Shown here: positions 1 through 49,574 of the stretch, in pieces
How the letters are laid out: each line of letters begins with the position of its first letter
Position numbering within the stretch: position 1 is the stretch's first letter
DNA from: a virus
IMG/VR virus record: IMGVR_UViG_3300045988_029408
Location: 1-64,000 of that record
Reading direction: 5' to 3' (one strand)
Length of the DNA: 64,000 bases
Position numbers and translations under genes: made by a program
The notes under the pieces: generated by a model
What the model was told of the DNA's origin: nothing
Seen by the model: only the letters and a program-made list of their open reading frames with translations
Databases searched by the model: none

Positions 1-744
1 AAAGCTTCTAAACCTTCTTATGTAATTGGAGATTACGAAGCTCCAGTAGAAGAAAAAATTGAAATTGATTTAACTAGTGCTACCGTTGTTATCGGTCATA
101 GATACGTTTTGCGTATTGTTTATAAAGATATGTACGAAGCTCCGGGATAGTTCACTCATACTTACGAAGTAGTTGCTACTACTGAAACTGCTGATGATTT
201 GGGTAATGCACTGTTAAAGAAAATTAATAAACACACAAATCGTAGAGTAAGTGCTACATTTGCAAGTCATAAGTTAACACTTACAGCTCTTCCTAAGGAT
301 GATAATGAAGGTGTTTATTCATTGAATGAATATTCAGTAGTTTCTATGGAAGCTTCTTTATATGTTACCATTCCTGGTGCATTGCTGTCTAATGTTCCTG
401 AAGCAGTTCCTGGTGCAACTATTAAGAAAACTGCTGATAAACCGGGTAAAGGTTACTGGAAACAAGTTCGTGATATGGAAGTACGTATGTTAGGTTACAA
501 AGGTCATGTATTTACAGATGCATATCCTATTGTTGAACCGAAACGTAATATTACTGAAGGTGCGAAGTACGATTACATTACTATTGAAAATGATAACTTG
601 TATTTATCACCAGACAATCAGTATATTAAAACTACTCCGTTGACTACTGAATTGTATGTTGAAGAAACAGCTAATTTGAGTGCATCTCAGTTTGTTAAGA
701 ATCTTAAAGCATTTATCACTGGTGTTGATACTAGTGCTGCTTAA
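1..744 (+). CDS. Virion structural protein, C-terminal fragment (possibly major capsid protein; 5' end outside window)
   Basis: Frame 1 is open from base 1. One in-frame TAG at 148-150, with no TAA/TGA before TAA at 742-744. Followed by the strongest intrinsic terminator in the window. The product call is positional inference only. Confidence 0.55.
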
Positions 745-771
745 TAATACACGGTTTCTTTATTTAAAACC

Positions 772-809
772 AGGCGAGGTTGAGGTTTTATCCTCGGCTT
801 CGCCTTTTT
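772..809 (+). terminator. Rho-independent terminator
   Basis: 14-bp stem (AGGCGAGGTTGAGG / CCTCGGCTTCGCCT, 3 G-U pairs), 6-nt loop, then a T-run at 806-809. Confidence 0.8.
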
Positions 810-822
810 AATTTTTATAAAT

Positions 823-1368
823 ATGAAAATAATTAATGCAAAGATAGAAAATAACCTTCTAACTATTAAATTAGATTCGGTAGCTGGAGTTACTAAAGTA
901 TATTTAGATAGTGTACTGTCAAGAACTTATCATTCTAGTAATGATGCAGATCATGAAATAATTATCAGTAGTCCTCAAATAAGTGATAATAGTATAAATA
1001 TCAATATAGAAGAATACTACGCTACCTCGTTTATAGTAACAGTAGTAGGAAGTGAAACTGCTCACGCTATAGCATATGACGAAAAGAATCTATACTATCA
1101 AAAAGTGAACACATTGGTTAGTTTTTGTTATACTTGTTTAGATAAACATCAAAAAGAAAAAATATTAATGTTGTAGTTTAAGTCACAATTGTTAGACTAC
1201 GCTAGAGCTAATAATCTTACTGAAGACGCTATACAGTATTATGTAGATATATGTCGTTTATTAGATATACCTAACGAACACATATGTTGTAAGTATAATA
1301 GAATATTTAATTGCCACAGACTGTGTAAAACTTGCAGGTCTTGTTATAATGGTTGTTGTTAGTTATGA
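823..1368 (+). CDS. Hypothetical virion-module protein with Cys-rich C-terminus
   Basis: ATG 823. Track ORF 823-1176 continues in frame through TAG 1174 and TAG 1360 to TGA 1366-1368. ATGA overlap with the next gene. Confidence 0.75.
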
Positions 1369-1562
1369 TAGAAAACAATTATAGAATAGGTAAACATTTG
1401 AACAACATGACTAAGTATAATATAACATTTGATCGTACTTAGATATTAAACTTAGTGTGTTCAAATTACGTAGAAGATATACTAAAACAAGGAGATGCGT
1501 TTAGTATATCAGAAGAAGAGAAACACAAATTATTAGTACTAATAGATAAACTATTGAAATAA
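1365..1562 (+). CDS. Hypothetical small protein
   Basis: ATG 1365 overlaps the upstream TGA. One in-frame TAG (1440). TAA at 1560-1562 overlaps the next ATG (TAATG). Confidence 0.6.
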
Positions 1563-4500
1563 TGGCATAGTATGCAACAACAGATGACCTTAGGGAATTA
1601 ACTAGTTTAGTACGAAGCTTATAGGGTGATGTAACCACATTAAACAACAATGTTGGTGAACTTGATACATTAGTAGAAAGAATTAATCACTTATCTACTT
1701 TAAAAGATGTTACCATTACTTATATTACAGAAGGAGACTTAATATAGTATAGTAGTGATGGTACATGGCATAATGTATCTCCAGCTGTATTGGCAGATTA
1801 TATTAGTGGCGAAGGTGGTATTATCGACACTGCTGTAGTTAAAGCATTAATAGCATCAGAAGGCGGTAAGTTATTCTTAAGTAAACTATACGATGATACA
1901 GCATTGGGTGTTATTACATTTAAGAATAGTGTAATAGCTGATAGTATGATATATGCTAAAAAAGGAATTACTATTGGTAATTATATATCAGGACTACTTG
2001 GAGATGGAGCTATAATTGATGAACACGGCAATATAGAAGCCGGAAGCTTAACCCTTAGAGAATTCTTATCTGTACCAGAATTACGTTTTAACAGAGTAGA
2101 TGTGGTAAGTGGTGAATTGTGGAATTCTATCGCTTTTGGTACTATTGAATCAGTAGATACTAAAAACTAGATAGCTACTCTTAAACTAGAAGAAGGCGAA
2201 TATAGTGGGTTACATGTTAATGATATATGTAGAGGTATATGGCATAATATTAGTGGAGTAAATGAAACTACTCCAGGTACAGATGAATGTGGGTTTGAAA
2301 AAATGCAGGGATTTAGTACTGCTTACTTTACCCCTATTGAAATTCTAGATGAAAGGGGTAAACAATTTAGATATTCACTAAAGCCTAATACTACTCAACA
2401 TCCTACTGCTAATATGAAATTTGCAGTATATGGTAATTTCTTAGATGAAACTAGACAATCTAGTGCTTACTCTACTAGAGATTATAAAAGATTCTTAAAA
2501 GATGTTAGTACTTGGGCAATAGATTGGACTAATATAGCATCACAATTTGGTAAAATAGAAGGGTTGACTATTCCTGGAGCCCCAGATGATGGGGTACTAC
2601 ATGGGGATGGTGCTTACTTAACTAATGTCTACATGACAGGTGCTATGATTTAGTTTACTCCAGAACAAGAAGATAGTCTCAAAGGATAGGATGCTTACTC
2701 GGTAAATCTTACTAAAGACAACCTATCTGTTATTGTGGATAATGAATTAAACATATTAGATAAGTATAGCTAGCTAGATAATTTAACATTTGGAGTACAA
2801 GCTTTTAAAGGTACTACAGAATTATCATATTCAGATGTATATGCAGAAGGGTCTTACTTCTTAACTTGGGAAGCAACAGGTCTTAAGTGTACGATGGCTA
2901 ACGGTATATTCACAATTACAGATATTTTATCTGTTACCAATAGTCCTCATATAGACTTGTTAATTAACTGTGAAGGTAATGCTACATTTAAAAAGACAGT
3001 AGTATTATAGTTCCATTTACAACCTAATTCATTATGGACTACATATAACGATAACGATGCTATACCTGATAGACCTACTGGTGATGGTACTACCAACGGT
3101 TGGCATAGAAATTATACAGCATCTGCAATATGGATGTCTACTAAAAGCTCTATCGAAGTAGATGATCCTAATGTAGAATGGGGAGATCCTAATAGATTCC
3201 GTGGTGCTTCAGTAGCTGGTAAAGATGGTGAGTATACTAGATTCGCATATACTGAATCAAGCGTACCACCACCTACTCCTATAGGTGATACTGTTCCACC
3301 TAAAGACCCAAACAATAAATACACTTGGACTATGGACCCACCGCAAGGAGATGTGGAAAAAGGTATTTGGGTATGGCAATCAATACAAACTGTATATTCT
3401 GATAAATCTACATCTGGATGGTCAGAACCTTTCCGTTTAACAGGAGCTGATGGTAAAGATGGTAATGACGGTAATGATATAGAGTTTGTATATAAGATTA
3501 CACAAAATAATTCTGCACCTACTTTACCAGCTAATAGTAATAGAGATGATTATACAGAACCAAACAATGGTTGGTATGATAACCCAAAAGGTGTTAGTGA
3601 AACTTGGCAATACGAATGGGTAGCTCAACGTACCAAACCAGCAGCTAAAGCAGGTACTGGTAATTGGGGTAACTGGCAAGGTCCTACTTTATGGTCAAAA
3701 TGGGGTGAAAAAGGTATGGATGGCGATGGTTATGAATATATCTACTATCGTACACAAGCTGAAAACATTGCACCTGATACTCCTGTAGCTGCTAATAATA
3801 CAGATGATGAAGCGCGTCCTCAGGCATTTATTAATGGTGTAGCACAAACTACTACTTCTCCTGGAGGAATGTATTGGACTGATGATCCCCAAGGAGTTAG
3901 AGAAAACTTGATGTTTGAATGGGTAAGTGTACGTAAAAAAACAGATGGTGTATGGTCAGCGTTTCAAAAACCAGCTATATGGGCTAAATGGGGTGAGACT
4001 GGTTTAAGTGGCGGTAATTATCAATATAGATATAAAATATCAGCTACTACTCCAAGTATACCTACTGATCAAGCTGCGTCTGGATGGTCTGAAGATTCTG
4101 AAATGGTTCCACCAGAAGGTCAATATGTATGGCAAATTCATAGATTTAAAAACGCAGATGGTTCATTAACTGCTTGGACTGGGTTAATAAGACTTACCGG
4201 AGCCGATGGTAAAGATGGTGAAGATGGTAATAGTATTGAATTCTTATATGCTCGTAATAACGATAAGGATAATTATCCTCAAAAGCCTAATACTAATCAA
4301 ACTACAGACTGGACAGGTACTGGACCAGATGGTACATAGTGGTTTGATAATCCACAGGGAGTAGATGATTCACATAGATATGAATATGTAACTCAAAGAT
4401 ATAAAGATAAGAGTACTTAGAAATGGGGAGATTATTCACAACCAGGCTTATGGTCTGTATTTGCAGATAAAGGTAAAGATGGGGATGGATACGAATATAT

Positions 4501-6574
4501 ATTCGCTAGGTTCTCTAGTTATGATCAAGCAGCTCTATGTAGTAGAAATGAGCAATATTATCCAGCTTCTCCTACTTATGGATCACAATACTTAAATGGT
4601 GATTATCAACAAGATGATTATATACCTACTAAAACTTGTAAAGGTGCTACTTTTACTTATACAGATAATGGAGTAAGCGTAACAGAAAGCATACCATATC
4701 AAGTATGTTGGACACGTAAGAAAGAAAATGGTAAATGGGGAGATTGGAAGGACGGATTCATTTGGACTAAATGGGGTAAAGACGGTCAAGATGGACAAGA
4801 CGGAGATAAAGGAGATCAGGGTGATAAGGGAGAACCAGGAACACCAGGTACTGATGCTACTACTTATATAATTACTCCTGGAGCAGCAACTATACGTCTT
4901 ACCAGAACTTCTTCTTATGAACCTAGTAGCATGACATTTAGAGCATACAAGAAAACAGGAACAGGTAGTCTGTCTTCTGTATCTGGTTACTGGGAAATAT
5001 ATGGTAGTAATAGTCACGCTCCAACAACCTCTTCAGAAGGTACTGAAGTGGGTGGTGGTTGGTCTGGTGTTTCCAATATTACATTTAATATATCTAGTTC
5101 TACTAAGTATAACTATTATACTGTAGCATTTAATCCTACTCAGTATCCTATTTATAATGGAAATCCTGTAGCAGCATCAGCAACTATTACAGTTGTAGTT
5201 GATGGTTAGGATGGACAAGATGGATCAGCTGCTAATACTCAATATACAGATATTAGATTTAGAGGAGTTTGGAATTCATCTACTAGATATTACTACGCTA
5301 CAGCATCATCAATAGGTTTAACTAACTATGAAAATCCTAGTAATGCATATGTTAGAGATTAGGTAATTTACAAAGGTGGCGTATATCTAGTTAAGTATGT
5401 TAATTCTGGCGGAGTATACGGTCAAACTCCTAGTTCTAGTTCAGCATATTGGGAATTAGTGTCTAGTGTTAGTGCCATGGCAATTAATACATTGTTAGCA
5501 GATAATGCTGTATTAGGTGCATTTCATTTCTCTAATAATGTATTTTGGTCAGGTGATGGAGGTACTTCATCTAGTGCAGCTAAACTATATATGAACAGTA
5601 GTACTGGTGAATTTAGAGCATCTAATGGTACATTTACTGGTACTGTGAACGCTAAAGCTGGTACATTTAAAGATCTATATTTTGAGAACTGTTTCACTAA
5701 AAATAGGTTTCTAAATATTACGCATCTAAATAGATCTTCATCTGATATAGATGATCCTAAATATGGTGATACATATTGTTCAAATAGTAGGTTATATTCT
5801 TATCAATCAGATGGTTGGGAGGATGCATTAGAATTATACACTAGTTCTACTAATGCAATAAGCGTATATGCTAATCCTTCTTATTCTAAAATTATACATA
5901 TGACTGGAGCAAAAGGCGGTTATACAAACAAATTGATATTACCAAGTGTTAGTGAAAATAATTATGGTACTGAAATGACTATTGTTTGTAGACAATATCC
6001 GTCAACTAGATCTATTACTGGAACAGAAGGTAATTTGCACATAGTTACATATGATAATAGAGGAAATACCTATACAGATGAAAGAACTTTAGTTTTAGCT
6101 AAAGGTAATAACGGCGGTATATTAAACGTAGTTAGTACTCCATAGGGATGGCTCATTACAAATTGTTCACACGATGGTTGCTCAGATTCTGGTGTTATTC
6201 TAAAGTTTAAAGTTTAGTATAATGGTAGTTCATATGCAGTGGTATCGTCTAGTATACACAGTATATATAACTTTGGTAATAGTAAAATTAGTTGTACTAG
6301 AAGTGGTGCAGGAGCTGTAGGAATAACTATAACTAGTGGAACTAGTTACTTTTGGGCTCCGTGTGATGTACGAGTATACGGAAGTTATAGAACTGAAGGT
6401 ATATCTGGTAGTAACGCTCATCCAATATATGCAACTTTAATATCATATAGTACTGGAGTTACTGCTTTGAACATAAGTGTGCAATTAGCAGATGATGATA
6501 CTTTAAATGATGGTAATTTCTATGTAGATATTTACGGTGGTTTTGCACAATATATAGGAAACAATCCGACTTAA
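1562..6574 (+). CDS. Tail fiber-like protein (1,670 codons) with internal repeats and a collagen-like tract
   Basis: Six frame-2 track ORFs (1790, 2303, 3134, 4931, 5459, 6239) plus the gaps were read codon by codon. 14 in-frame TAGs, no TAA/TGA until TAA 6572-6574. Repeated modules include TGADGKDG(N/E)DGN(D/S)IEF at 3443 and 4199, and KG(M/K)DGDGYEYI. Confidence 0.85.
4775..4849 (+). repeat. Collagen-like G-X-Y triplet run inside the fiber gene
   Basis: Translates as GKDGQDGQDGDKGDQGDKGEPGTPG, eight consecutive G-X-Y triplets. Confidence 0.8.
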
Positions 6575-6619
6575 TTTTATGAATATACACAATCAAATTA
6601 AATAGTTAAGCGATAGAGA

Positions 6620-6655
6620 ACTACTAGAGGGCATCTATTAGATGCTCCTAGTAGT
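6620..6655 (+). terminator. Long stem-loop after the fiber gene (no T-tract)
   Basis: ACTACTAGAGGGCATC / GATGCTCCTAGTAGT forms 15 bp with one bulge and a 5-nt loop. Lies 46 nt after the TAA. There is no downstream U-run, so the terminator role is uncertain. Confidence 0.4.
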
Positions 6656-6750
6656 AATGTAGGAACAATTAATCAGTGATAGCAAATAGTTAGGTATAAA
6701 TGTTATAGCTGATTTATTAGTAGATAGTATGTATAGAAATAGAGAAAGAA

Positions 6751-7233
6751 ATGAAAACAATAACAATGCACCACATATTAGGCAATAAAGTATTAGAATA
6801 CGATGTTGATGATAGAGGAGTTATCGTAGATGAGAGAGAAATTGATAGAGACGATATGTCAAAGCCTGTAGATGTTTATGCGGTAAATTTTAATGACTGG
6901 AGACCGCATCCCTCTGTAAATGCTGATATAATTATAACAAGCACCTCATTTGTCATAACTAGATTTGCTACACTGAACGGTACAGTAAAATGCTACATTC
7001 CTGACCAAACAAAAAATTTCCCAGGAATGAAAGTGGAAGTGAAAGGTATAGTTGACGGTCAGGAATTATACTGGGGATATAGTGCTGATGTGAAATTAGT
7101 CAATATCACATCAGACGGAACCTATGATATTCCGCCATTGGAAACTGTAAAAGGTAATCTGTCATTCAGAAACGGTAATATTGTCGGTCCTTGTAATATA
7201 ATCATCACTTAGCTACCGTTACGACAACAATGA
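6751..7233 (+). CDS. Hypothetical protein
   Basis: ATG 6751. TAG 7210 is read through to TGA 7231-7233. Confidence 0.7.
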
Positions 7234-7260: not shown

Positions 7261-7722
7261 ATGGACAGAAATGAATTAATAGATAAATTAAAACCTTATT
7301 TTGAAGTAAGTGAATTAGTATGCCCTCATTGCTACTCCAAGTTTGGTGAATCTTCATGGTAGTTTATAAGTACTGAATTACTTAGTACTTTGTATGTATT
7401 ACGTACTAAGATATTTAAAAAACCTATTACTATTAATACTTGGAAAACAGGTGGATAGTTCTCACAGAGAGGATTGCGTTGTAATATGTGTCAACTAGTA
7501 AAGAATAAAAGTAGCATTTACTTATCCGCACACTGTTTAGGTAAAGCAATAGATTTTAATGTAAAGGATTTAGATAGTAATGCAGTGAATAACATAGTAA
7601 GATAGAATGCTGAATTATTTGAATATCCTATTAGATTAGAAGCTAATACTGATGGATGGTCTCATTGTGATTGTTATGTTCCTTATAACTCTAAGGAAAA
7701 GATAGTAATTTTTACAGCATAA
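7261..7722 (+). CDS. Peptidase M15-type cell-wall hydrolase (endolysin candidate)
   Basis: No track ORF exists here because of 3 in-frame TAGs. Joined translation contains SAHCLGKAIDF and WSHCD, the zinc-ligand pattern of M15 D-Ala-D-Ala / L-Ala-D-Glu peptidases. TAA at 7720-7722. Confidence 0.7.
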
Positions 7723-7779: not shown

Positions 7780-8403
7780 ATGGAAGAAATTTGGAAAGAC
7801 GTAAAAGGTTTTGAAAGTTTATATATGGTTAGTAATTTAGGGAGAGTTAAAAATGTTCCACATTATGTTACTAGAAAATATTATAGACCTTCTACTGGAG
7901 ATAATATTGAAGATAAATTGTATATAAAAGAAGTGTTGTTAAATCCTAAAAAGAAGTACCATCATAAAGATAGAGGGATATATAACTATTTCTATTATGG
8001 AGTAAGTCTTCGTAAAGATGGTAAGTATTACAACAAATCAATACATCGTTTAGTGGCAGAAGCTTTCTTACCTAATCCTGACAATCTACCTTGTGTAAAC
8101 CACAAAGATGAGAACAAATTAAATAATTGTGTAGATAATTTAGAATGGTGTACTTATCAACACAATAATGTTTGGAAAAATAGATTAGCTAAAAGTTTAG
8201 AAACGTTTAATGCAAATCCTAAAAATAGAAGGAAAGTATATCAATATACAAAAGATGGGGCATTCATTAAAGAATATGAATCTGTAAAAGAAGCTACTAA
8301 AGAAATGGGTTTAAAGCACAGTAGTGGAATATATCTTAGCTGTAATCATAATAATTGCTACGCAAGAGGCTTTAAATGGTCTTTTAACTCTCCTTCCTTA
8401 TAA
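7780..8403 (+). CDS. HNH homing endonuclease (free-standing)
   Basis: N-terminal WKDVKGFESLYMVSNLGRV (NUMOD4-like), VNHKDENKLNNCVDNLEW (HNH), and a C-terminal VYQYTKDG...FKW DNA-binding repeat. No TAG codons. Stops on TAA. Confidence 0.85.
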   Translation: MEEIWKDVKGFESLYMVSNLGRVKNVPHYVTRKYYRPSTGDNIEDKLYIKEVLLNPKKKYHHKDRGIYNYFYYGVSLRKDGKYYNKSIHRLVAEAFLPNPDNLPCVNHKDENKLNNCVDNLEWCTYQHNNVWKNRLAKSLETFNANPKNRRKVYQYTKDGAFIKEYESVKEATKEMGLKHSSGIYLSCNHNNCYARGFKWSFNSPSL

Positions 8404-8459
8404 ATGCATCATTTAATAAAGAAAATGGCTTAAAACGCCTTAAAATGCGTTATAATAAT

Positions 8460-8789
8460 ATGAATAAAGAAACAATATTTTATAGTATTATGTATTAGGA
8501 TAGTTCGGCTATCAGCATCATACCAGAACTAGCTAATGCGTATAATATGACTCCTCATCGTATAACTAAAGAGGGTGAGGTAATTAACATACCTATTAAC
8601 AGAACATTAGGTAGATTATCTTTTGTTGGTGGTCAAGATTGGATACATCCTATAGTAAATACAGATAATATTAGTGTAGTATTTGACACTAATAATACTG
8701 GTGCAGTGAGAGTAGCTAGACCAGTAATACAATATTGTGATCCTAACGGATGTAAAAATTTAGTGCAATTTGCATTACATTAGAATTAA
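8460..8789 (+). CDS. Hypothetical protein
   Basis: ATG 8460. In-frame TAGs at 8496 and 8781. TAA at 8787-8789. Contains track ORF 8547-8783. Confidence 0.6.
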
Positions 8790-8807
8790 TAATTAAAATA
8801 TACGTAT

Positions 8808-15334: not shown

Positions 15335-15368
15335 CATTATCGGTTGGTTTAAAAGGAATTACAAAGCA

Positions 15369-38500: not shown

Positions 38501-41500
38501 CTATGATGTAGGTATATCATATACTTAGTAATGAAAACACTAATAGTGCTTTATTGAACAGATTCTTTACTGACTTTGTTAAGTATATTCATAATTTTGA
38601 AACTCATTCTTACACTACTACTGCTAGAAACATAGGTTCAAATGGCGAATATAGATATGGAGCTACTACTAAGAACGGAAGTTTAGATGCAATCCAAAGT
38701 AAACTAGACAATAAATGGAAAGGATCTATGATTGTTGCGCTTGATATCATTTCTGATAAATTAAACAGTGTAGCTACTACTAGTGAAGCTGGCAAGTTAT
38801 TTAGAAATATGATAACTCCGCTAAAATAGGCTATGAACAAATTGAACATAGAAAACTTAGAGTCTATAAAAGACGTACTTAGAGAAGCAGATAAACTTTA
38901 TCAATTTGGAACTATTACTGGCGATTTATAGCAAGATGCTGTAGCTTGGCAGAAAGCTATGCGTAATGCATCTAAAAGTGGTAAGGTTGGTAAAAATTTG
39001 CTTTTACAACCTTTAAATAAGTTAAATACATCTAATGTTTCTGAATTTAGACTTCTAGAATCTTCCAATAAACGTTAGCAAGGAGTATATAAGAAGTTAG
39101 ATGAGATGTTTACTGAAAAAGGTATTCTTACTTAGTTATCTCAAATGTTTGGTTCTTATATTAAGTCTATACCATCCACACAATCTCAAAAAGGTCCCAG
39201 AAATACCAAAATATATTCAATAGGATAGTATAATTTCATAACTAGAACTTTTGCCATACTTGCTAACACTAAAGAATGGGTTGATAAGATGTTGAATAAT
39301 ATTTATAATTCTCATTCTGTGTGGTTAAGTACACTAAAAAATTTAGGTGGAGCTAAACAAGTACAAGTACACACAAAACTTAGTACAGTATTAGATGATG
39401 AATGGAATGACTCTGTAGCAGATAAAGAAGTAACAGAACTAGAAGATTTGACAAACAGGTTTATATCCATATGGTCAGGTAAACATGTTACACCAGCGTT
39501 GGCTAATAAAAGATTTGCTGCTGATATTGAAGGCATACCGATATTTGAAAACATAATCAATGATAATTTAGATATAAATCCTAAAGTAATAGATGTATTT
39601 GTTGGTTATTTGGCAGATGAAATTATGGCTATATCAGATGCTAGATACACTAGAGATTATTTCATTGAAAAGTTGAACTAGGCAACTAATAGCAATTACA
39701 CTATTGATTCGTTCTCAAAATTGTCCTCATTGTAGTAGGAACAAATATTTAAAAATAACCCAGAAGCTGCTAAGTTACTTAGACTATTAGTAAAAACGTA
39801 TCATTACGTAGAAGGAGAGCAGCAATGGTTATACGATGAAGTTAATGATAGATATTACAGAAGAGCGTTCCATATAGATTTACGTTCTGGTAAAAAAGGT
39901 CCTAGAGGATACGAATTTAGGCACTTTAAAGATATAGGTAAATCTATAAATCTTTCTTCTAACGTGGTGCAAAAAATATCTTCTAATATGTTCGATACAG
40001 ATTCTCGTCAAAGTTCTATAGATTATGTTTATAATATGATAAACCGAGAAAGTATCAGAAAACAAATAAGAAGCATGTTAAATGATAATATTGCATACGC
40101 TATCGTTAAACTACAACAATTAAAAGCTATTATAGTAGATGATGCTGGTAATATAACAAGTAATCGTTACTTGCCTTCAGATTTAATTAAAAAATATATT
40201 TATGGTAAACAATCTGTTAATGTAAACGAATTAAGCGGTAATGATTATTATAGAGCTATTGGTTCTGCTGTAATACAAGGTATGTCAGATATATCAGAAT
40301 TTGAGAAACTATGTCATGGAGATATTGCGTATCATAAAAATATTGACGGTGTAACTAAACGTTATTCAGGTATTGTTTCTACAACTTCTCTTACTTCAGA
40401 GAAAGGTACTATGAGAAACGTGTTTGACGAAGAAGATAGATTATTCGATAGTAACACATATAATTCTGTTACTTTGAACACCACAATGGTTGTAAATCAA
40501 GCTAAGTATAAAGGGGAAGCATACAGAGCTCTTGGGCTATCTGAGAACATGGTTAAAATATATTTGGAAGATAATAATATAAAAGTAAATATTGACACTT
40601 CTGACGTATTAGATGCTGATGGTAACATAAAAGATAATTATCGTAAAGCTAAATTGATAAATCGGTTACTGCAATTTAGAGAAGAACGACGTTTGAAAGT
40701 AATGATCAACGGAGAACCAATGTCTGATGCATAGTTATTAGATGTTGCAGTAAAAGATTTTGAAAACAGATACGAAGGTTATCTTAAAAACGACCCATCA
40801 GATGCTCAAAGTTGGGTTACCAGTCAAATGTTTAGAGCTTTACAATAGCGAAAAGGGGCGTGGAACGATGTATCTGAAGCTATATATAATCTACTTACTT
40901 ATTATGACAAATTCGGATCTGATAAGCTTACTCCTAGAACTATAAGGCTTATTTAGGATAATATATGTAAAGTGCTTAATATAAATTATGACGAATTAGT
41001 AAAAAAAGCTAAGGCATACGATGCTAATAAAACTAATTTAAACAGTAAAGAAGTGCGCGATTATAAAGGGTGGATTTTTGGTATTGCTGATAAATTCAAA
41101 TTTGAATCGCCATCTCTTAAGTATATTTACTACGGATACGATTAGGGTAGAATGGATGGACTTACTACTCCAATTTATGATAAATCTTCTTATAAAGTAT
41201 TATGGAAGATTGAAGTAGAAGGACATGAAATACAACAGTTATACGATTTTATGCAAGATAGTAATGTAGACGTGGTTAAACAAGAAACTGCCGTTAAATC
41301 AGGAGGTTTACCTAACTTTGAATTGTTCGATTTAAACGGTAAGGTGGATAGAGCTGCACTAAATGCTTCAGTAATTCAATCGCAATACTTTTCTTTGTTA
41401 GGAGACCAGCTTAATACAGCTTCACATCACACAAACGACGCTAATCTATTGACTCAATTTATGAAAGTGGCAATGATGAACACAAATAAAGACAGACGAT

Positions 41501-44500
41501 ATAGAGTTAATGGTGTTACAGTTGATGGTCAAATGCTTCAGACATTCTATAAAGCGATTCTAGATGAACTTACTAGAAGAGGGTCTGTTAAATTTAACAA
41601 AAAATGGGGTATAAACGATAACGGAGTTGTTGATAAAAAAGCTTTTATGAAGTCTTTATAGACCATGGCTCAAACTGAGAATCTTCCAGCTGAAACAGTA
41701 GCTGCTTTCCAAGTCGATGAAAACGGTGAATTTAAAATACACCCAGCAGCAATGCCAAATATTGCTTGGATAATGTCTCGTATTCTTGCTCAAATGGGTG
41801 ATACTATAATAGATACTGTTACTCCAGGTAAAGCTTTGTATCAGGTAACTAGTGTTGGTTATGATAATTTCATGAATTTGAAGCAACATGCTGACAAACA
41901 TCTATATATGCCTGGGGAAATTGATTCTAACGGCAATATTCATCAAAGAATGCAAGTTAGATTGTCTATAAATTTCTTTGACGATGTAATATAGGAAGCT
42001 AAACGTAATAAAATTAAAGGATACGATTTTGATAACTTTGAAGATCAGCGCAGGTTCATACTAGATAATAAGGAATTATTTGCATTATCATATCGTGTTC
42101 CTACACAGGGGTAGAATTCAACTATACCTGTTGAAATAGTAGATTTAGTACCTAGTCTTAATGGTAGCATGATCCAATTCCCTTCTGGTATTACTGCACT
42201 TACTGGTTCTGACTTTGATATTGATAAAATGTTCTTAGCTAGATACAATTATGAAGTTGTTAATGGTAAAATGCAAAAAGTTAAGTATGATATAAATGAA
42301 GTGATGAATAATATAAACAGCACCGATTCCAAAAAATTACAAAATTTCTTATTAGATATGTATCAAGGTGTGTTGACTTCTTTAGATCATGCGTTGGCTA
42401 CTAGTACTCCATTGGACGTTGCTACAGGACCTATTAGTACATTTGCCAAGAAAGAACTAGAAGAATATTCTGGAGGTAAAGCAGACGGATTACCTGATAA
42501 TTTAGACGGATTTTATCTTAACCCAGTATTCCAAACAAGGTAGAAAAAGCTTAATTCAGGGTCTGATGCCGGTATTGGTCCTATGGCGTTAAATAGTGTA
42601 TTCTAGTTCTTTGTTCAGATTGCTAAATTAGATATGCGTAAATTCCCAATTATTGAGCAATTGAGATTATAGAAATTAGGAGAAACTTTTGATAGATACG
42701 GTGAAGAAATATTGGATTCAACTTCAGGTCTTATTAACGCGTTTGTAGATGCTGCTAAAGATAACTATATCGGCAACGCTAATGTTAACGCTTATACTTT
42801 TGATGTAGTAGCTATGCTAATTGCATCTGGGTTTGGTAATGACACGTTTGCATTCTTAACACAACCTATCATAAAGGAAATTTCTGATAACTGGTTGACT
42901 TATAAACAAGGACTCATTGGTGTATCAGATTAGGAAAAAAGAGGTACATATTTTATGGACTCTGTAATAGAAGATTACAATGACAGATTAAAATCTTTAA
43001 GTGCTGAAGATACACCAGAAAAAGAGTATTCAGAACTGACCAAACACGATGTATTAATGGGCAATCTTAAACCTAAACATGACGCTAGATGGATTAAAGA
43101 TTAGCTTACATACGCAAGTATGTTTAGACAATTGTATGAATTAGCAAAAGAGTACCACAATGCTATTTCAAATGCTCAGATTGATACTAAGAAGTACGGT
43201 GTTAACATTAACCAATTACTTTCTTTTATTCAAGGTGTGAACCAATTCAACTCAGAATATAATATTGCATTTAGTAATCCTAGAGATATGTATGATAATA
43301 CGTTCTTAGGAGCTAAGTATACTAAGGGAGTTATGGGTATATTTGACACATTTAGTAAACTATTACCTGAATTTTCCAAAGTATATATTGATGCAGCTAA
43401 TGAACTTAGTAAAGAATGGGGTTTATATGGTAGACAAAGTAAAGAATTCCTAAGAGTGGTTGGACCTAAAATAAAAACTGTACTTTATTTGCCATTCTTT
43501 AATCAGTATATAATTGAGAGATTTGGCGGAAAAGCTTTAGCAAAGTTAACATATGGTGAAAATAGCGTTCCTGGAAGATATGAAGCTATTAAACGTAAAG
43601 CGTTACGTAGAGGTGAAGGAATAGACTTGTTCAACGCTGTTAAGTATAACAAACTTGGAGATGTCAAAGTTCCTCAATTCATGTTGGTTACACAACAGTT
43701 TAAAGAAGATTCTGACGTTAAAAATAATGTCCAGTTAGCTTTAAGTGAATTATTCAATAGCACTGATCCTGAAATAAAACAATGGGCTGAAGATTTTGCA
43801 GTTTATATGTTCTATGTATCTGGCGGTACTGATTCAAATGCTGGTGGTATTGTTAGAACTACAGTATACGATATTATTCCACCACAGTACTTAGCTAACT
43901 TAAGAGCTGGTGGAAAGACATTTAATTAGTATATTGCTGAAAATGTCATGGGTAGAACAACAGGTATGACTAATACTGAAAAAGACCAAATAATTAGCTT
44001 ATTGGCTGTATCTGATGACAATTATGTTCCTACTATATCTCCTAGAAATCACAAATATGTAATCAAAAGAGTTGTTGGTAATGATGTGATTACTATTACT
44101 AAAGGATCCAATTCGTTATTTAATAGAAGTACTAATACTTATAGTCCTTTTATTAAAATAACCACTTCTAATGGATATGACTTATATCGTCTTGGAGAAA
44201 AAGTGTCTTCTATTTCTAAAAAAACAGGTACAACATTTTCTAATCCCGTATATTATAAAGTTAATAAACTTGGATATAAGAGTAATAAGAGACAGTCGTT
44301 TGCTTTAAGAGCTGATGGTTACATTAGTGAAGACGGCACTATAAGGTCTTTACTGTGGTAGGATAATGATTTTAATAAATTGGGATTCAATAGTTTGAAT
44401 GAGAAAGAATAGTCTATTTATATGAATAATACTAATACTACTCTAGATAAGATAGATGATGCTTTAAGTGGAAGTATAGATTATTCTAAATATTTCAATT

Positions 44501-44901
44501 CTCAAAAAGCCAATGATGATTCTGAACAGCAAAGAGCTTTAGTAGATACTGTAGATGCTGTGTATTTTATAGCGGACAGTTCTTTCAGTTATCATTTGCC
44601 AGTTAGAGACTATGCTAGATTTAAAAATAAAGAATTTTATGTAATATCTATAGATTAGACTGAAATACCCACAGCAAATGGCTAGAAAATAGCAATCATT
44701 GGTGATTCTGCAAATACTGCTATAGAGATATACAAAAACAATTCTGATAAATAGATATATACGTTTGTAAATTATTTCGGCGAACGGTCTTCTGTATTTT
44801 AGGCGCTGTACAATTAGATAGGTGATGAGTTAAATAACAATAAAGAATCTGAGGATAGTGATTAGAAAGGTAGTGCTATTAAAGATAAATGTAAAAATTA
44901 A
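29569..44901 (+). CDS. Giant polyvalent virion protein (5,110 codons) with a two-barrel RNA polymerase DxDxD motif and an HExxH motif
   Basis: All 24 frame-1 track ORFs from 30178 to 44422 and every gap between them were read codon by codon. 67 in-frame TAGs and no TAA/TGA until TAA 44899-44901. Contains RVPTQG...GSDFDIDKM, HEAFH, and an N-terminal Gly/Ala zipper (30178-30330). Confidence 0.8.
37333..37347 (+). other. HExxH (HEAFH) zincin-like motif inside the giant ORF
   Basis: Context is GSFYHEAFHRISLF ... EEYLADRFAEF. Confidence 0.5.
42211..42225 (+). other. DFDID metal-binding motif (crAss-type virion RNAP signature)
   Basis: Reads gac ttt gat att gat. Preceded by YRVPTQG(TAG)NS...ITALTGS. 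Confidence 0.7.
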
Positions 44902-44906
44902 TTAAT

Positions 44907-47900
44907 ATGACTCCGTTTTGTCCAAATTTTAGTAATAAACAAGTAAAGAAAGAGTTTGAAACTCTTGAAGATATGGTTGGAGAAAACCAAGCATATTATT
45001 TGTGGGATAAATATGAAGGTGATTATGCAAAAGCTTCTTCGGAGGCTTTTGCGCAATTGCGCAAACAAGTATATTCTAGACCTGACGCTAAAACCCCGTA
45101 GCAGTTTAGTAGTTCTCAAAGAATGGCATATATCATGCAACAGCTGTATCCAGAAATAGAACTGAAATTTGTAGAAGCCATAGAGGGTGGATATGCTGGG
45201 TCTATTGATTTAGATGCTATGCAAGCGTTGATAGATATGACTAAATCTGGAAAAGATACCATTCCCCACGAATATGCTCATTACTATGTAGAAATGTTTT
45301 CCAATGCCCCAATAATTAAAGAAGGTATTGAAACATTTGGTGGTAAAGAACAGTTAGTACAAGCTGTAGGTATTAGGGTGGCTAATATGAATGGCGAAGC
45401 TAGAAGTTGGTGGTAGAAATTCAAAGATTTTGTTAAAAAACTGTTTGATAACAAATATGCTAAACAAGCTTTGCTTGCCGAAATTACAGATAGTTTTTTG
45501 ATTCGTAAACAGCTAGGAGATACGTAGAAAGTATCTGGAGTGTTTCATCAAGAAATACCATCTGTGGATTAGGTAAGAAAGATACTACAAAATTTAGCAA
45601 ATACTGTCACTTTTGATGAAGTAGAACATAGGTTTACAGATAAAAAAACTGGTAATATATTAACTTCTGTTACAGGTTTTAAAGAAAAAGCCAATTATGA
45701 CAATTATGATGCGTCACTAGAAGATCAAACGTAGGCTAAAATATCTTAGGAAGCTAGAAATAATGGTACTAATATACATGCTGTTTTAGAAGGAGTATTA
45801 AAGGGCAATTTAGATATACAACGATTTACAGATAGTATGTCTAGGGAAGCTATAAAAGGCTTAATTGATGTAGTTAACCACATTAAACAAAATTATGACT
45901 TTGTTGCATCTGAAGCAGTATTAGCTGACCCTAAACATGGTGTTGCTGGTATTGCTGACTTAATATTGAAAGATAAGAAAACAGGTGAGTATGTATTAAT
46001 GGATTTTAAAACTAAATTAATAAATTATAATAATAAGAAAAACGACAAAGGATATCTGGTCAATGAAAAAGGATCAAGATTGAGAGGCTTTTTGTTTTCT
46101 ACTAGTAAAAAATTTAGACTAAAATCTGAAAAAGACGGCTACGATTTTCAGCTATCTGCGTATAAGTATATACTATAGCAAAATGGTATACCTATTTCTA
46201 AAGTGGGAATTATACCGATTGTGTATTCCGTTGATAAAGGTAAGATAAGTAAAGCAGGATTAAGTACTGTGTTTGGTACTAATGAAGAAGCTAACAGTCA
46301 AATGAAGAAAGAAGGTTTCTATCAGATAACACAATCACAACAAACTAAATTTGATGTTGAATATAATATATTTGGTGATAAAACTATTTTTGGAAATGAT
46401 ACTGAAAAAGTGGATCAAATGCTCAAAGAACTTACTAATTTGATGAATACTATATAGAAAAAACTAAGTATTCAAGAACAGGTTCTTAAGCTACGCAGAA
46501 GTTATCGCACTCAAGCTAAAGATGCTGCAAACCTGTTAGAAAAGATATCAAACATGACAGAATTAGATGCCTTACTTTAGTACACTAATTATGCAGCTGA
46601 TCATTTAGGTAGACTCAATAAACAGATATAGGAAAGATATAAACAAGGGAAAGATGCTAAATGGGATTTAAATGTATTATAGAGCTATAGAGAAATAGCA
46701 TCGTCTTATGATATAGTAAATAGAATATCAGGATTGGCTAATAGGTATTCTGATATATTTGGAGACGATAATGTGAGAGCTATAGAAACTGCTTGTAATA
46801 AATTATAGTAGGCACAACGAAACATATTAGATGCTTGTGATACAATTGGTTCTAAACTATATTTAAATGAAATTCTACCATACGTAGGTATAGTTAGATA
46901 TAGAATTAAAAACGAAGAAAGAAAGAAGTATATAGAAAACAACCCAAAAGGTCCTAACGAATCAGATAAAGATTTTAATTTGAGAGTTCAACAACATATA
47001 GAACAGTATTTAAGAGATAACAGTAATGATATAGAGTATCAAACTAGAGAATGGTTAGATGCTCAAAGACATGTAGCTGAATCTGGGTTTGAATGCAATT
47101 CTATATTAGCTAACTTTGGTACAGTTTATGAATCTAAAGATCCTTTTGTACAAGCTATAGTACAAAGATTCGATTTTGCAATTAGTGATAAAGAACAGCG
47201 AATGATTAAATTAAGAGCTTAGATAAGTAAAGTACTAAAAGAATACAAAGCAAAGTATGGTACTACCAATTTTAGTGACCTGAGAAAGGTGTTTGATGAT
47301 TTTGTAGAAGTAACTGACAATGGCGTTATTTACTTGGTTAATCCAATTGGTGGAGAGTATTTGCAAGCATCTAAAAAAGAACGTAACAGAATATTCTCTG
47401 ATGGATCTTTAACTTTTTAGGAACAGCAAGCAGCTTGGGAAGAATGGCTTAGAACAAACAATCCTATATTTGACATTGAAGGTTACAATAGACAAATGGA
47501 TGAAGATTTAGCATCTATATTAGAGCCATTGGATGAAGAAAAAAGAAAAAAAGTTATACAAAATGCTAAACTTAGTGCAGATAAAAGAAAATCTTGGTTT
47601 TCTATGTATAAAGACGGTACTATTACTGCTGATATAAGATAGGAATTAGATGATTTGACACGAGATTTAGATGAAAAGTATCGTAAACCTAATCCTGCTA
47701 TATATAAAAATGCTAAGTATGTGGAGATGTTAAAATACAAAGACTCTAATGACCCTAAATGGTAGTTGTATAAATTATTTTTAGATCTTATAAAAACATA
47801 TGATTATTCAATGCCACGTTCATTACGTCTTAACTTTAGGTTACCTAGCGTTATTAAGAGAGGTGTTGAAAGAGTAAATAGCGATGGTGTAACGTCAACA

Positions 47901-49574
47901 ATAAAGAACTACTTATAGACAGAAATGCTACCTATGCAAGACGATGATATCCGTGGTACTTTTGTTGACGAAAATGGTAAACGCATACGGCAAATTCCTA
48001 TGTATTATTATGCAGAAGGGATTATAACAGAAGATGAACAATCTTTTGATTTACCTACTATCTTTTATAAATGGGCTGATGCTGCTGATACTTACTTAGT
48101 TAAACGTGATTTGGAGTCTTTAATACTGCAAACATAGGCATTGTTAGCTAGTAGAGAAACTCAGGATAATGTTATTTCTTTGTTAAAAGGTAATAAAAAT
48201 AAAGTATCCAGTCATAAAGTTAATACTTAGAATTAGTTTGATTCTTGGGTGGATTAGGTGTTCTATGGAAATAGAGTACAAGATATGGGTAAAATTAAAT
48301 TACCGTACTCTGATAAAGTAATAGATACTGCTAAATTAATAAAATGGATAGTTGGTATGTCTAATAAGAGAGTAATGTCTGGTAATATGGTAGCAGCACT
48401 CAATAATATATTGGTGGGTGAAGTAAATCAATTAGAAGAAGCTGTTGCAGGACAGCATACTACGAAAGAAGACTATGCTAGAGCTACTAAAGAATTTGCT
48501 AAGAACTTTTACGGTTTACTAGCAGATGTCAATAAAGCTGTACCACAGAATAAATTAAATTAGTTGGCTGAATGGTTTGGTATATTTGAATCAAATAAGA
48601 ATTTATCATTAGAAGGTTTTATGAGACATTCTGTTAGCGATATCTTATATACTCCGAATAAGATGGGTGAGCATGAGATGTAGATCAGATTCCTAACTGC
48701 TTGTTTGATGACTATGAAAGCTAAAGACGATAATGGTAAAGTAATAGGTAGTATGTATGATTATGTAACTTTTGATGAGAATAATTAGTTAGTAGTAGAT
48801 GATAAAGTTGCTAATTTTGATAAAATGTAGCAAAACTTATTTTCACTCAAGGTTAGGAAGGTACTAATTTCACTGCACGGTAATTATAGCGATAGAGCAT
48901 CTGTAGCTGCTGAATCTCAATGGTATGGTTGGATTGGTTTGTCTTTACGTAGATGGATTGAACCTACTGTAATGAGACGTTATCAAAAGAGATATTACGA
49001 TTCTGTGTTCGATACTGAAATAGGTGGTATGCATAGAGATTTTGCTTCTTGGCTGTTTAGAAATGAATATACAGCTGGTATGATAAATTTCTTTGCTACT
49101 AATATATTTAAAGCTAAACAACTTTAGATAGAGGTGATGAAGTGGAGTACTATGACCGATGACGAGAAGAGAAACGTAATTAAGTCAGCTATTGAATTTT
49201 CAGTTGCAGCTTTGAGCTATGCTATATTTGCTTTAATTAATCCTGGAGATGATGATGATCATGACTTTGGATAGGAAATATTGTGGGTAATAAAGTATTA
49301 GGCTTATAGATTATTTACAGATATGACTTTCTATGTCTTACCTACTTCTTTTACTAAGCTTTTCCAAGATCCTTTTCCAGTTATGGGTTATATAAACGAT
49401 ATACTTAAATTGTTTATGCAAATGTTTGATCCATTTGAAGAATATAGTACTGGTAAGCATTTGGTATCTAATAAATTATTAGATCAAGCTATTAGACTTA
49501 CTCCTGGAGCTAAATAGTTGGGTCGTATAGGTAATGCTTCTCAGGAAATAAACAGTTTCTTACATTAGCGATGA
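44907..49574 (+). CDS. Large virion protein (1,555 codons) with HExxH and PD-(D/E)xK-like motifs and C-terminal hydrophobic segments
   Basis: ATG 44907. Frame-0 track ORFs 45123 to 49323 are joined across 31 TAGs. TGA at 49572-49574. Contains HEYAH (45267-45281) and GIADLIL...YVLMDFKTK (45948-46016). Confidence 0.8.
45267..45281 (+). other. HExxH (HEYAH) motif
   Basis: Context is KDTIPHEYAHYYVEMF. Confidence 0.45.

What the first reader, a model, noticed from the sequence alone, without database searches (positions are those of the whole stretch)
1..49574. TAG is a sense codon (apparently Gln) across the plus-strand late module but not in the minus-strand early module
The ORF track breaks the plus strand into more than 60 pieces. 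Consecutive pieces share a frame, and every junction I read codon by codon is a TAG with no TAA/TGA in between.

Joining them gives 25 tightly packed genes, many with ATGA or TAATG start/stop overlaps. All end on TAA or TGA, never TAG. Together they hold about 227 in-frame TAGs by manual count: 67 in 29569-44901, 31 in 44907-49574, 22 in 20936-25126 and 14 in each fiber gene. Tandem TAG-TAG pairs start at 15495, 28705, 36418, 39733 and 46806.

TAG falls where Gln is expected in three places: the SQ of the DGR-RT IGxxxSQ motif (14225-14227), the YQxL position of a DUF1064-like fold (53189-53191), and inside a CAA-rich Gln linker (36403-36441).

The 15 intact minus-strand genes have no in-frame TAG, and one of them stops on TAG. 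Late-gene TAG recoding is already described for some crAss-like and Lak phages. The notable point here is that the code boundary coincides exactly with the convergent module junction at 49.6 kb.
Basis: partly seen in the sequence, partly recalled or inferred. Interest (0 to 1): 0.8.

Follow-up and report, generated by a model that had tools for sequence, protein, structure and literature searches.

The report
Known amber-to-glutamine recoding, crAss-like phage

Summary
With only TAA and TGA as stops, the plus strand 1-49574 resolves into 25 packed genes. They contain 235 in-frame TAGs and no in-frame TAA or TGA. Table 11 shatters them into 260 pieces.

Homology runs across the TAGs. In three standard-code relatives, Gln is the residue opposite window TAGs 7.5 times more often than background. 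Nineteen columns are Gln in every one of them, including the RT SQ motif.

The window is a mosaic relative of crAss-like phage cr6_1 (Suoliviridae). Its RefSeq record already reads through the same TAGs and carries a tRNA with a CUA anticodon outside the region this window covers.

The minus-strand replication block has 1 in-frame TAG in 4530 codons, against 66 expected at the late-gene rate. That one TAG lies inside the DUF1064 resolvase domain, so the boundary is not absolute. One early gene probably stops on TAG.

In cr6_1 the other code boundary lies within a single strand, at the tRNA gene. The code therefore follows expression timing, not strand.

Late-gene TAG-to-Gln recoding, a code switch at the strand switch, and "dual-coded" early blocks are all published. 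The finding is correct but already known.

The parts
1..49574 (+). Late (virion and lysis) block decoded with TAG as Gln. It holds 25 genes, 235 in-frame TAGs in 16,119 codons, no in-frame TAA or TGA, and summed gene lengths (overlaps included) equal to 0.977 of the span.
1..744 (+). 3' part of a gene that starts before the window (homologue of cr6_1 12591-13577). 1 TAG, at 148.
823..1368 (+). Hypothetical late gene. 2 TAGs, one only 2 codons before the TGA stop.
1562..6574 (+). Tail-fibre-like protein (homologue of the cr6_1 'straight fibre tail protein'). 14 TAGs.
6507..7233 (+). Two small overlapping ORFs, 6507-6788 (6 TAGs) and 6700-7233 (4 TAGs, with a tandem TAG-TAG at 6718). The gene model here is uncertain.
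7261..7722 (+). Endolysin homologue (89.5% aa identity to the cr6_1 endolysin). 3 TAGs among 5 Gln codons.
7780..8403 (+). HNH endonuclease, TAG-free, 100% aa identical to the cr6_1 copy.
8445..9362 (+). Two small late genes: 8445-8789 (2 TAGs) and 8808-9362 (0 TAGs).
9377..13342 (+). Tail protein whose 3' end carries the DGR variable region. 14 TAGs.
13667..14695 (+). DGR reverse transcriptase. 12 TAGs, which are 12 of its 13 Gln codons. The TAG at 14225-14227 is the Q of the SQ motif.
14816..15334 (+). Holin family protein, TAG-free, with only 2 Gln codons.
15291..15947 (+). Lysis-regulator (LysB-like, spanin-like) gene. 10 TAGs among 14 Gln codons. Tandem TAG-TAG at 15495.
15944..18620 (+). 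Four late genes: 15944-16579 (0 TAGs), 16594-17535 (2), 17562-17990 (1) and 18042-18620 (4). The TAGs at 18180 and 18198 are Q in all three standard-code relatives.
18884..19549 (+). crAss tail ring protein 2. The Pfam match covers residues 5-207 and spans 8 of the gene's 9 TAGs.
19546..20013 (+). Late gene with 4 TAGs. The TAG at 19933 is Q in all three standard-code relatives.
20010..20945 (+). crAss tail ring protein 1. The Pfam match covers residues 1-303 and spans all 6 TAGs.
20936..25126 (+). Large virion structural protein with 22 TAGs. Seven of those columns are Q in all three standard-code relatives.
25128..29556 (+). Two virion genes: 25128-27524 (8 TAGs) and 27517-29556 (13 TAGs, tandem pair at 28705).
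29569..44901 (+). Giant 5110-aa virion protein (homologue of the 4400-aa cr6_1 gp36). 67 TAGs. Tandem pairs at 36418 and 39733.
44907..49574 (+). 1555-aa late protein with 31 TAGs and a tandem pair at 46806. It is the last gene of the recoded block.
49618..64000 (-). Replication and recombination block that almost entirely avoids TAG. It has 17 genes and 4530 codons. They include a PDDEXK nuclease, a metallophosphatase, AAA ATPases, a primase, a Sak4-like AAA_24 protein, a DnaB-like helicase and a DNA polymerase.
52907..53287 (-). DUF1064 Holliday-junction-resolvase-like gene with an in-frame TAG at 53189-53191 (codon 33). It is the one early-block gene that needs TAG read-through.
62694..63518 (-). 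gp56-like early gene. It probably ends on TAG at 62799-62801 (239 aa). Read-through would add 35 aa and cross a second TAG.

Best explanation
The window is about two thirds of the genome of a crAss-like phage. It belongs to Crassvirales, family Suoliviridae, and is close to Afonbuvirus faecalis cr6_1. The phage uses genetic code 15 for its late genes.

**Proposed mechanism (inferred, not shown in the window).**
- A phage-encoded amber suppressor tRNA with anticodon CUA sits at the 5' end of the late transcription unit. That region lies outside this window.
- The host glutaminyl-tRNA synthetase charges it with glutamine, as happens with E. coli supE.
- The tRNA then lets ribosomes read the 235 in-frame UAG codons of the virion, DGR and lysis genes.

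**Early genes.** The replication genes are expressed before the suppressor accumulates, and they avoid UAG. They therefore translate identically with or without it.

**Consequence.** Full-length late proteins can only be made after the suppressor appears. The most heavily recoded are the spanin-like lysis regulator, the endolysin and the DGR reverse transcriptase.

**What the code tracks.** Use of the code follows expression timing, not strand. One gene inside the replication block, the DUF1064 resolvase, also carries a sense UAG. One early gene probably still terminates on UAG.
For: **Shown in the window.**
- Treating TAG as sense restores long ORFs on the plus strand only. Doing the same for TGA or TAA does not.
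- There are 235 in-frame TAGs and no in-frame TAA or TGA in 16,119 codons.
- Pfam matches run across the TAGs in RVT_1, CrAss_Ring_1 and CrAss_Ring_2.

**TAG is Gln.**
- Three standard-code relatives were used: cr10_1, cr1_1 and cr50_1. In them, 76 of the 322 residues aligned opposite window TAGs are Gln, a 7.5-fold enrichment.
- That matches the 27% conservation of the window's own CAA and CAG codons.
- The log-likelihood is -851 for Gln against -983 for the next best residue, Glu.
- Nineteen of the 135 covered columns are Gln in every standard-code relative.
- The RT SQ-motif TAG aligns to Q in the solved Bordetella DGR RT, 8ub7.
- Against cr6_1, 59 TAGs are shared. Where the two differ, CAA or CAG is the partner in 21 of 67 cases one way and 28 of 86 the other.

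**Early block.**
- It has 1 TAG in 4530 codons against 66 expected.
- Off-frame TAG occurs at 3.0%, against 3.5% in late genes.

**Suppressor tRNA in relatives.**
- cr6_1 has a tRNA with anticodon CTA, annotated in RefSeq as tRNA-Gln, directly upstream of its TAG-rich terminase gene.
- 32 of 42 related IMG/VR loci carry a tRNA(CTA) 7.5-10 kb upstream of the capsid gene on the same strand.
- These include the three full-length contigs that share a window-specific segment.

**Literature.**
- TAG to Gln, mostly in late genes of crAss-like phages (PMC7886860).
- A code switch at the strand switch, a dual-coded early block, and the Sup-CTA tRNA at the 5' end of the recoded strand (10.1101/2022.06.29.495998).
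- Preferential recoding of spanin and amidase genes (10.1101/2021.08.26.457843).
- Metaproteomic evidence for code 15 in crAss-like phages (PMC9523058, abstract only).
Against: - No tRNA gene lies in the window, so the suppressor of this particular genome was not seen.
- The closest relatives carry two quite different tRNA(CUA) sequences. The identity of the charged amino acid rests on alignments, not on tRNA analysis.
- Reading 67 UAGs in one ORF needs near-complete suppression against host RF1. Nothing in the window explains how that is achieved.
- Ten of 42 related loci showed no tRNA(CUA) within the 10-kb flank.
- There is no expression or proteomic data for this genome.
Confidence: 0.92

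Rival explanations
1. Strict two-code genome. Every plus-strand gene uses code 15 and every minus-strand gene uses code 11, with the boundary set exactly by the convergent junction at 49.6 kb.
For: TAG density falls from 1.46 to 0.02 per 100 codons across the junction at 49574/49618. One early gene probably ends on TAG, because a 97-98% identical relative has an indel and a shifted frame right after that TAG.
Against: The DUF1064 resolvase gene on the minus strand has a sense TAG inside its domain. That TAG is conserved in cr6_1 and two metagenomic relatives. The cr60_1 orthologue has 3 TAGs at other positions. In cr6_1, 16 genes on the same strand as the late genes (26035-31824) carry only 1 TAG in total, and the recoded block starts at the tRNA gene, not at a strand switch. 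The early genes read the same under both codes, so code 11 cannot be distinguished there.
Confidence: 0.12
2. TAG is read as an amino acid other than glutamine, for example Glu, Lys, Tyr, Trp or pyrrolysine.
For: ARAGORN labels every tRNA(CTA) 'Pyl' by anticodon alone. Many TAG columns are variable and align with K, R, E, N or D. Most columns in the RT and the one in the resolvase are of this kind.
Against: The likelihood over 322 aligned cells favours Gln by more than 130 log units over any other residue. Nineteen columns are Gln in every standard-code relative. TAG interchanges with CAA and CAG among recoded relatives. No pyl genes are seen. RefSeq names the cr6_1 tRNA Gln.
Confidence: 0.03
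3. The TAGs are genuine stops. The plus strand would then be a field of broken genes, assembly errors or pseudogenes.
For: Table 11 gives 260 pieces.
Against: There are no in-frame TAA or TGA codons against 235 TAGs. Homology continues across the TAGs. The same pattern occurs in eight other independently assembled genomes: cr6_1 and seven further Suoliviridae. 59 TAG positions are shared with cr6_1.
Confidence: 0.005
4. Read-through does not depend on a phage tRNA. A host-encoded suppressor or inhibition of RF1 would do the job.
For: No tRNA lies in the window. Ten of 42 related loci lack a detectable tRNA(CTA) in the scanned flank. Yutin et al. note imperfect agreement between recoding and detected suppressors.
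Against: cr6_1 and 32 of 42 relatives carry one at a conserved position. These include the contigs sharing window-specific sequence. The window omits that part of the genome.
Confidence: 0.06

Closest known systems
Uncultured crAss-like phage cr6_1 (NC_055894.1; Suoliviridae, Bearivirinae, Afonbuvirus faecalis)
   Same: The two are collinear, with 65-98% nucleotide identity over most of the window. Its RefSeq CDSs read through TAG in the same genes (29, 57, 19, 14 and 10 TAGs, for example), and 59 TAG positions are shared. The same TAG sits in its resolvase gene. It carries a tRNA(CTA) annotated as tRNA-Gln.
   Different: The window is mosaic. Region 27500-50000 has no megablast match in GenBank phages, and the giant protein is 5110 aa against 4400. 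Two extra early genes (54710-56880) and two extra late genes (16594-17990) are present. cr6_1's homing endonucleases at 53.6-54.4 kb are absent.
[quoted passage not shown] 2021, PMC7886860; Borges et al., 10.1101/2021.08.26.457843; Peters et al. 2022, PMC9523058)
   Same: TAG is reassigned to Gln mostly in late genes, suppressor tRNAs are present, and the host presumably uses the standard code. Spanin and amidase genes prefer TAG. Here the LysB-like gene uses TAG for 10 of 14 Gln codons and the endolysin for 3 of 5.
   Different: Nothing differs in kind. Here the DGR reverse transcriptase is the most TAG-biased gene (12 of 13). That family is not among the four named in the passages of Borges et al. 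that I read.
Block-wise or 'dual-coded' phage genomes as modelled by Mgcod (10.1101/2022.06.29.495998)
   Same: The code switch coincides with the switch of coding strand. The early block translates almost identically under codes 11 and 15. The Sup-CTA tRNA sits at the 5' end of the recoded strand, as in cr6_1 and the IMG/VR relatives.
   Different: The resolvase gene is a single code-15-only gene inside the dual-coded block. In cr6_1 one block edge is not a strand switch.
Amber suppression by tRNA-Gln(CUA), E. coli supE (textbook knowledge, not tested here)
   Same: A tRNA-Gln whose anticodon is changed to CUA inserts Gln at UAG.
   Different: supE is a weak, leaky host mutation. Here the suppressor is phage-borne and must act efficiently at hundreds of codons.

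Membership tests
Phage with TAG-to-Gln reassignment (genetic code 15) in late genes | In-frame TAGs, and no other in-frame stops, inside conserved genes, with homology continuing on both sides | tested here: met
   There are 235 TAGs and no in-frame TAA or TGA. The Pfam matches to RVT_1, CrAss_Ring_1 and CrAss_Ring_2 span TAGs. Alignments to 10 relatives also span them.
Phage with TAG-to-Gln reassignment (genetic code 15) in late genes | TAG columns correspond to Gln in homologues that use the standard code | tested here: met
   Gln accounts for 76 of 322 aligned cells, a 7.5-fold enrichment. The log-likelihood is best for Gln by more than 130 units. Nineteen columns are Gln in every standard-code relative. 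The RT SQ motif is Q in 8ub7.
Phage with TAG-to-Gln reassignment (genetic code 15) in late genes | Phage-encoded suppressor tRNA with anticodon CUA | tested here: inconclusive
   None lies in the window, which does not cover that part of the genome. It is present in cr6_1 and in 32 of 42 related loci, including three contigs that share window-specific sequence.
Phage with TAG-to-Gln reassignment (genetic code 15) in late genes | Recoding concentrated in structural and lysis genes, with early replication genes compatible with the standard code | tested here: met
   Density is 1.46 TAGs per 100 codons in late genes against 0.02 in early genes. Functions were assigned from Pfam and the cr6_1 annotation. 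The exception is the resolvase gene.
Phage with TAG-to-Gln reassignment (genetic code 15) in late genes | Gln actually inserted at UAG in the proteins | not testable with these tools
   This needs proteomics. It has been shown for other crAss-like phages (PMC9523058, abstract only).
Block-structured (code 15 / dual-coded) genome in the sense of Mgcod | The code switch coincides with a switch of coding strand | tested here: met
   The junction lies at 49574/49618 and GC skew flips there. The second boundary is outside the window. In cr6_1 it lies within one strand, at the tRNA gene.
Crassvirales, family Suoliviridae | crAss-type tail ring proteins and collinear similarity to classified members | tested here: met
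   CrAss_Ring_1 scores E=2.6e-109 and CrAss_Ring_2 scores E=1.4e-68. Nucleotide identity to cr6_1 is 65-98%. Protein matches to ten further Suoliviridae genomes were aligned. Capsid, portal and terminase genes lie outside the window.

The most novel reading that the evidence does not exclude
TAG may act as a per-gene timing gate rather than a block-wide code.

- **Resolvase.** Inside the otherwise TAG-free replication operon, the DUF1064 resolvase carries sense TAGs. The window and cr6_1 have one, and cr60_1 has three at other positions. The 8-9 listed neighbouring genes have none, apart from one near-terminal TAG in the primase. The resolvase would then be withheld until the suppressor appears.
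- **Two meanings in one block.** A nearby early gene still terminates on TAG, so the same codon would have both meanings within one block, depending on time.
- **DGR reverse transcriptase.** It writes 12 of its 13 Gln codons as TAG and would be gated in the same way.
Probability: 0.3. Interest if true: 0.35.

Novelty: already known. Interest (0 to 1): 0.2.

Why it matters
Knowing the code is needed to annotate this genome correctly. Table 11 turns 25 genes into 260 fragments. Beyond that, the window only adds another example to a documented strategy, in which late phage genes are locked behind a stop codon that only a phage suppressor tRNA can read.

Three small points go beyond the published pattern:
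- a resolvase gene in the early block that needs read-through;
- a probable TAG stop in the same block;
- the extreme TAG bias of the DGR reverse transcriptase.

These would matter only if experiments showed that they control timing.

Tried and rejected
- **Other reassignments.** Treating TGA or TAA as sense gives no gain in long ORFs.
- **Base composition as the cause of the TAG-free early block.** Rejected, because off-frame TAG is equally common in both blocks.
- **TAG-free late genes as deliberate avoidance.** The genes are the HNH endonuclease, 8808-9362, the holin and 15944-16579. I first took them as significant (P about 1e-5 from codon counts). They hold only 8 Gln codons in total, and 0.7^8 is about 0.06, so I make no claim.
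- **The DUF1064 TAG as a conserved Gln.** Rejected. Homologues have K, R or E at that column.
- **Finding the parent contig.** An exact 39-mer search gave nine IMG/VR contigs, and an exact-protein look-up gave ENA contigs. All are only 79-99% identical over their aligned segments, so none is the parent.
- **Finding the cr6_1 tRNA in those contigs.** Exact and degenerate patterns failed. These contigs carry a different tRNA(CTA), which I found through capsid-anchored loci.
- **C-terminal extension of the gp56-like gene.** tblastn found only four homologous records, none informative about the extension. The frame-shifting indel in L044 gave the only hint.
- **Direct DNA references to Pfam.** Rejected by the tool because of the in-frame stops.
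- **Not used.** The large protein databases and structure prediction, because they were not needed for this question.

Full report

Yes. I counted stop-to-stop ORFs of at least 300 aa. The plus strand holds 3 of them (3,357 bp) under table 11 and 10 (40,695 bp) when TAG is read as sense. Making TGA or TAA sense changes nothing. The minus strand gains nothing from TAG either, at 7,374 versus 7,539 bp.

With TAA and TGA as the only stops, region 1-49574 resolves into 25 tightly packed plus-strand genes.
- Summed gene length is 0.977 of the span, and there are ATGA overlaps at 15944, 19546 and 20010.
- The genes hold 16,119 codons with 235 in-frame TAGs and no in-frame TAA or TGA.
- Under table 11 they fall into 260 pieces, 90 of them at least 60 aa.

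A sixth pair starts at 6718. "No gene ends on TAG" follows automatically once TAG is treated as sense, so it is not independent evidence.

**2. What the window is.**

It is a mosaic relative of the crAss-like phage cr6_1 (NC_055894.1; Crassvirales, Suoliviridae, Bearivirinae, Afonbuvirus faecalis).
- The two are collinear at 65-98% nucleotide identity.
- Window 1-11249 matches cr6_1 13331-1. Window 11195-64000 matches cr6_1 97422-49508.
- The window therefore lacks the cr6_1 segment 13.3-49.5 kb. That segment holds the capsid, portal and terminase genes, the only tRNA, and many small early genes.

Pfam supports the functional labels.
- Plus strand: crAss tail ring proteins 1 and 2, a holin and an RVT_1 reverse transcriptase.
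- Minus strand: a DnaB-like helicase, a DnaG-type primase, AAA_24, a PDDEXK nuclease, a metallophosphatase and AAA ATPases.

"Late" and "early" are therefore reasonable labels by function, but they are inferred from gene content, not from expression data.

The RefSeq CDSs of cr6_1 already read through TAG in the orthologous genes. Examples are 57 TAGs in its 4400-aa protein, 29 in gp37 and 19 in gp33. Its replication genes are mostly TAG-free and its capsid gene has none.

**3. Does homology cross the TAGs, and which residue do they stand for?**

The Pfam matches span the TAGs. RVT_1 covers residues 73-267, Ring_1 covers 1-303 and Ring_2 covers 5-207.

I fetched the late regions of ten more Suoliviridae genomes. 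ORF statistics show that cr10_1, cr1_1 and cr50_1 (Boorivirinae) use the standard code. The other seven are TAG-recoded.

I translated window TAGs as X so that the alignment would not be biased towards Q. Across all aligned cells in the three standard-code genomes:
- Gln is the aligned residue in 76 of 322 cells, a 7.5-fold enrichment.
- The window's own CAA and CAG codons are conserved as Q in 27% of cells, which is similar.
- I used each amino acid's own substitution profile from the same alignments. The log-likelihood is -851 for Gln and -983 for the next best, Glu.

Column by column, 135 TAG columns are covered. Forty have Q in at least one standard-code genome and 19 have Q in all of them. 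In the recoded relatives these same columns alternate between Q and TAG. The cells are not independent, because the genomes are related, but the margin is very large.

Against cr6_1, 59 TAGs are shared. Where the two genomes differ, the partner codon is CAA or CAG in 21 of 67 cases one way and 28 of 86 the other.

The TAG at 14225-14227 is the Q of the DGR-RT "SQ" motif. The window reads PIGNYLS-TAG-FFANLY, and the solved Bordetella DGR RT (8ub7) reads PIGSLTSQLFANVY. It is also Q in cr10_1, cr50_1 and cr52_1, and TAG in cr56_1.

Adding TAG raises the Gln content of late proteins from 3.35% to 4.81%. The early proteins have 3.22%.

**4. The early block and the boundary.**

The 17 minus-strand genes have 4530 codons and one in-frame TAG, where the late-gene rate predicts 66. 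From those numbers the Poisson probability is about 1e-27.

TAG is as common out of frame in early genes (3.0%) as in late genes (3.5%), so the absence is selective and not compositional.

- It is codon 33 of a 126-aa DUF1064 (Holliday-junction-resolvase-like) gene on the minus strand.
- The Pfam match covers residues 12-98 and crosses it.
- Under table 11 the gene vanishes and leaves a 360-bp gap.
- The TAG is conserved in cr6_1 and in two metagenomic relatives.
- The orthologue in cr60_1, a recoded Loutivirinae phage, has three TAGs at other positions. Its nine listed neighbours have none, apart from one near-terminal TAG in the primase.
- cr272_1 and Dulem virus 42 have none in this gene.
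- In homologues the column is K, K, K, R, K or E, so it is not a "Gln-expected" site.

The gp56-like gene (63518 down to 62799) ends on TAG under table 11. A 97-98% identical relative (L044) has an indel right after that TAG, which shifts the downstream frame. This argues that the 35-codon extension is not under coding constraint and that this TAG is a real stop. That is a single observation.

Standard-code relatives end 6 of 58 late-region genes on TAG. One TAG stop among 17 early genes is therefore unremarkable.

The early block is best described as compatible with both codes, with one gene that needs suppression and one that probably uses TAG as its stop.

The change in density does fall at the convergent junction 49574/49618, where GC skew also flips. 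In cr6_1, however, the other edge of the recoded block is not a strand switch. Sixteen genes at 26035-31824 lie on the same strand as the late genes and hold one TAG in total. The tRNA(CTA) gene follows at 25904-25977. Next comes a TAG-free homing-endonuclease gene (24959-25888), and then the TAG-rich genes begin with the terminase, which has 14 TAGs. Code use therefore tracks the expression unit, not the strand.

**5. Mechanism.**

No tRNA lies in the window.
- cr6_1 carries one tRNA with anticodon CTA, which RefSeq names tRNA-Gln.
- I used its TAG-free capsid protein to fetch 80 related IMG/VR loci.
- 32 of the 42 loci I scanned have a tRNA(CTA) 7.5-10 kb upstream of the capsid gene on the same strand.
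- These include all three full-length contigs that share an exact window-specific 39-mer.
- Those three carry a tRNA(CTA) of quite different sequence from the cr6_1 one.

Three steps are inference from established knowledge and the cited papers, not shown here:
- the tRNA is charged with Gln by the host enzyme, as supE is in E. coli;
- it accumulates before late translation;
- it outcompetes RF1 well enough to pass 67 UAGs in one ORF.

**6. Gene-level bias.**

TAG supplies 30% of Gln codons across the late genes.
- In the DGR reverse transcriptase it supplies 12 of 13 (binomial P = 6e-6).
- In the LysB-like or spanin-like gene it supplies 10 of 14 (P = 2e-3).
- In the endolysin it supplies 3 of 5.

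The orthologues in cr6_1, cr52_1 and cr56_1 show the same tendency, with shares of 0.5-0.7. Spanin and amidase bias in crAss-like phages is already reported by Borges et al..

The four TAG-free late genes contain only 8 Gln codons in total, so their lack of TAG is not significant.

**7. Comparison with what is known.**
- Yutin et al. [quoted passage not shown] It also reports that the early block is dual-coded and that the Sup-CTA tRNA sits at the 5' end of the recoded strand. It uses the strand switch to place block boundaries.
- Borges et al. propose that recoding times late and lysis gene expression.
- Peters et al. report metaproteomic evidence for code 15 in crAss-like phages (PMC9523058, abstract only).

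**8. Verdict.**

It is wrong in two details, namely the claim that the boundary is exact and the claim that the DUF1064 site is a Gln site. The phenomenon is already known for this phage family.

Interest is low. What remains of interest is the possible gene-by-gene gating of the resolvase and the DGR RT, and the two meanings of TAG within one block.

Noticed in passing
window 13216-14695: A complete diversity-generating retroelement. The variable region (13216-13311) sits at the 3' end of tail gene 9377-13342. The template region (13430-13525) is 82% identical, and the mismatches I inspected in the first part of the repeat fall at template adenines. An Rfam RT-17 RNA lies at 13585-13667, and the RT gene is 13667-14695. 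The RT writes 12 of its 13 Gln codons as TAG.
   Followed up: partly
window 7780-8403: An HNH endonuclease gene that is 100% identical in protein to the cr6_1 copy, although the flanking genes are only 47-94% identical. It is TAG-free. It looks like a recently moved homing endonuclease.
   Followed up: no
window 27500-50000: No megablast match to any of 50,697 GenBank phage records. The region holds a 5110-aa ORF (29569-44901), which is only about 21% identical to the 4400-aa cr6_1 protein over 2552 aligned residues. It also holds a 1555-aa ORF with almost no similarity to cr6_1 gp37.
   Followed up: partly
window 54710-56880 (minus strand): Two early-block genes absent from cr6_1: a DUF7192 protein and a 459-aa AAA_5 ATPase. 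They are present in the metagenomic relative L046. cr6_1's homing endonuclease genes at 53.6-54.4 kb are missing from the window.
   Followed up: partly
window 15944-17990: The 15944-16579 protein ends in an acidic, Arg-Gly-rich low-complexity tail (RGGRGRGRGRGGR). 16594-17535 encodes a Gly-, Trp- and Cys-rich protein, and 17562-17990 encodes a small protein. Neither of these two is in cr6_1, but both occur in other Suoliviridae (cr52_1, cr109_1, cr1_1).
   Followed up: no
window 49631-49654: A GC-rich hairpin with 9-10 pairs and T-runs on both strands. It looks like a bidirectional terminator and lies just inside the 3' end of the first minus-strand gene, at the convergent junction.
   Followed up: no
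L062 2385-2459, L073 2323-2397 and L087 1589-1663, versus L001 25904-25977: Phages whose capsid proteins are 98-99% identical carry two unrelated-looking tRNA(CTA) genes at the same position. This suggests the suppressor tRNA has been replaced.
   Followed up: partly
L001 (cr6_1) 35453-38704, outside the window's coverage: Rfam hits to a Hatchet ribozyme, RAGATH-9, RAGATH-7-associated RNA and a group I intron, clustered in the small-gene early region.
   Followed up: no
window 1360, 8784 and 7209: Several late genes have a TAG 1-7 codons before their TAA or TGA stop. These may be former TAG stops now read through to a backup stop. The count within the last 10 codons (5 genes) is close to the 3.7 expected by chance.
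   Followed up: partly
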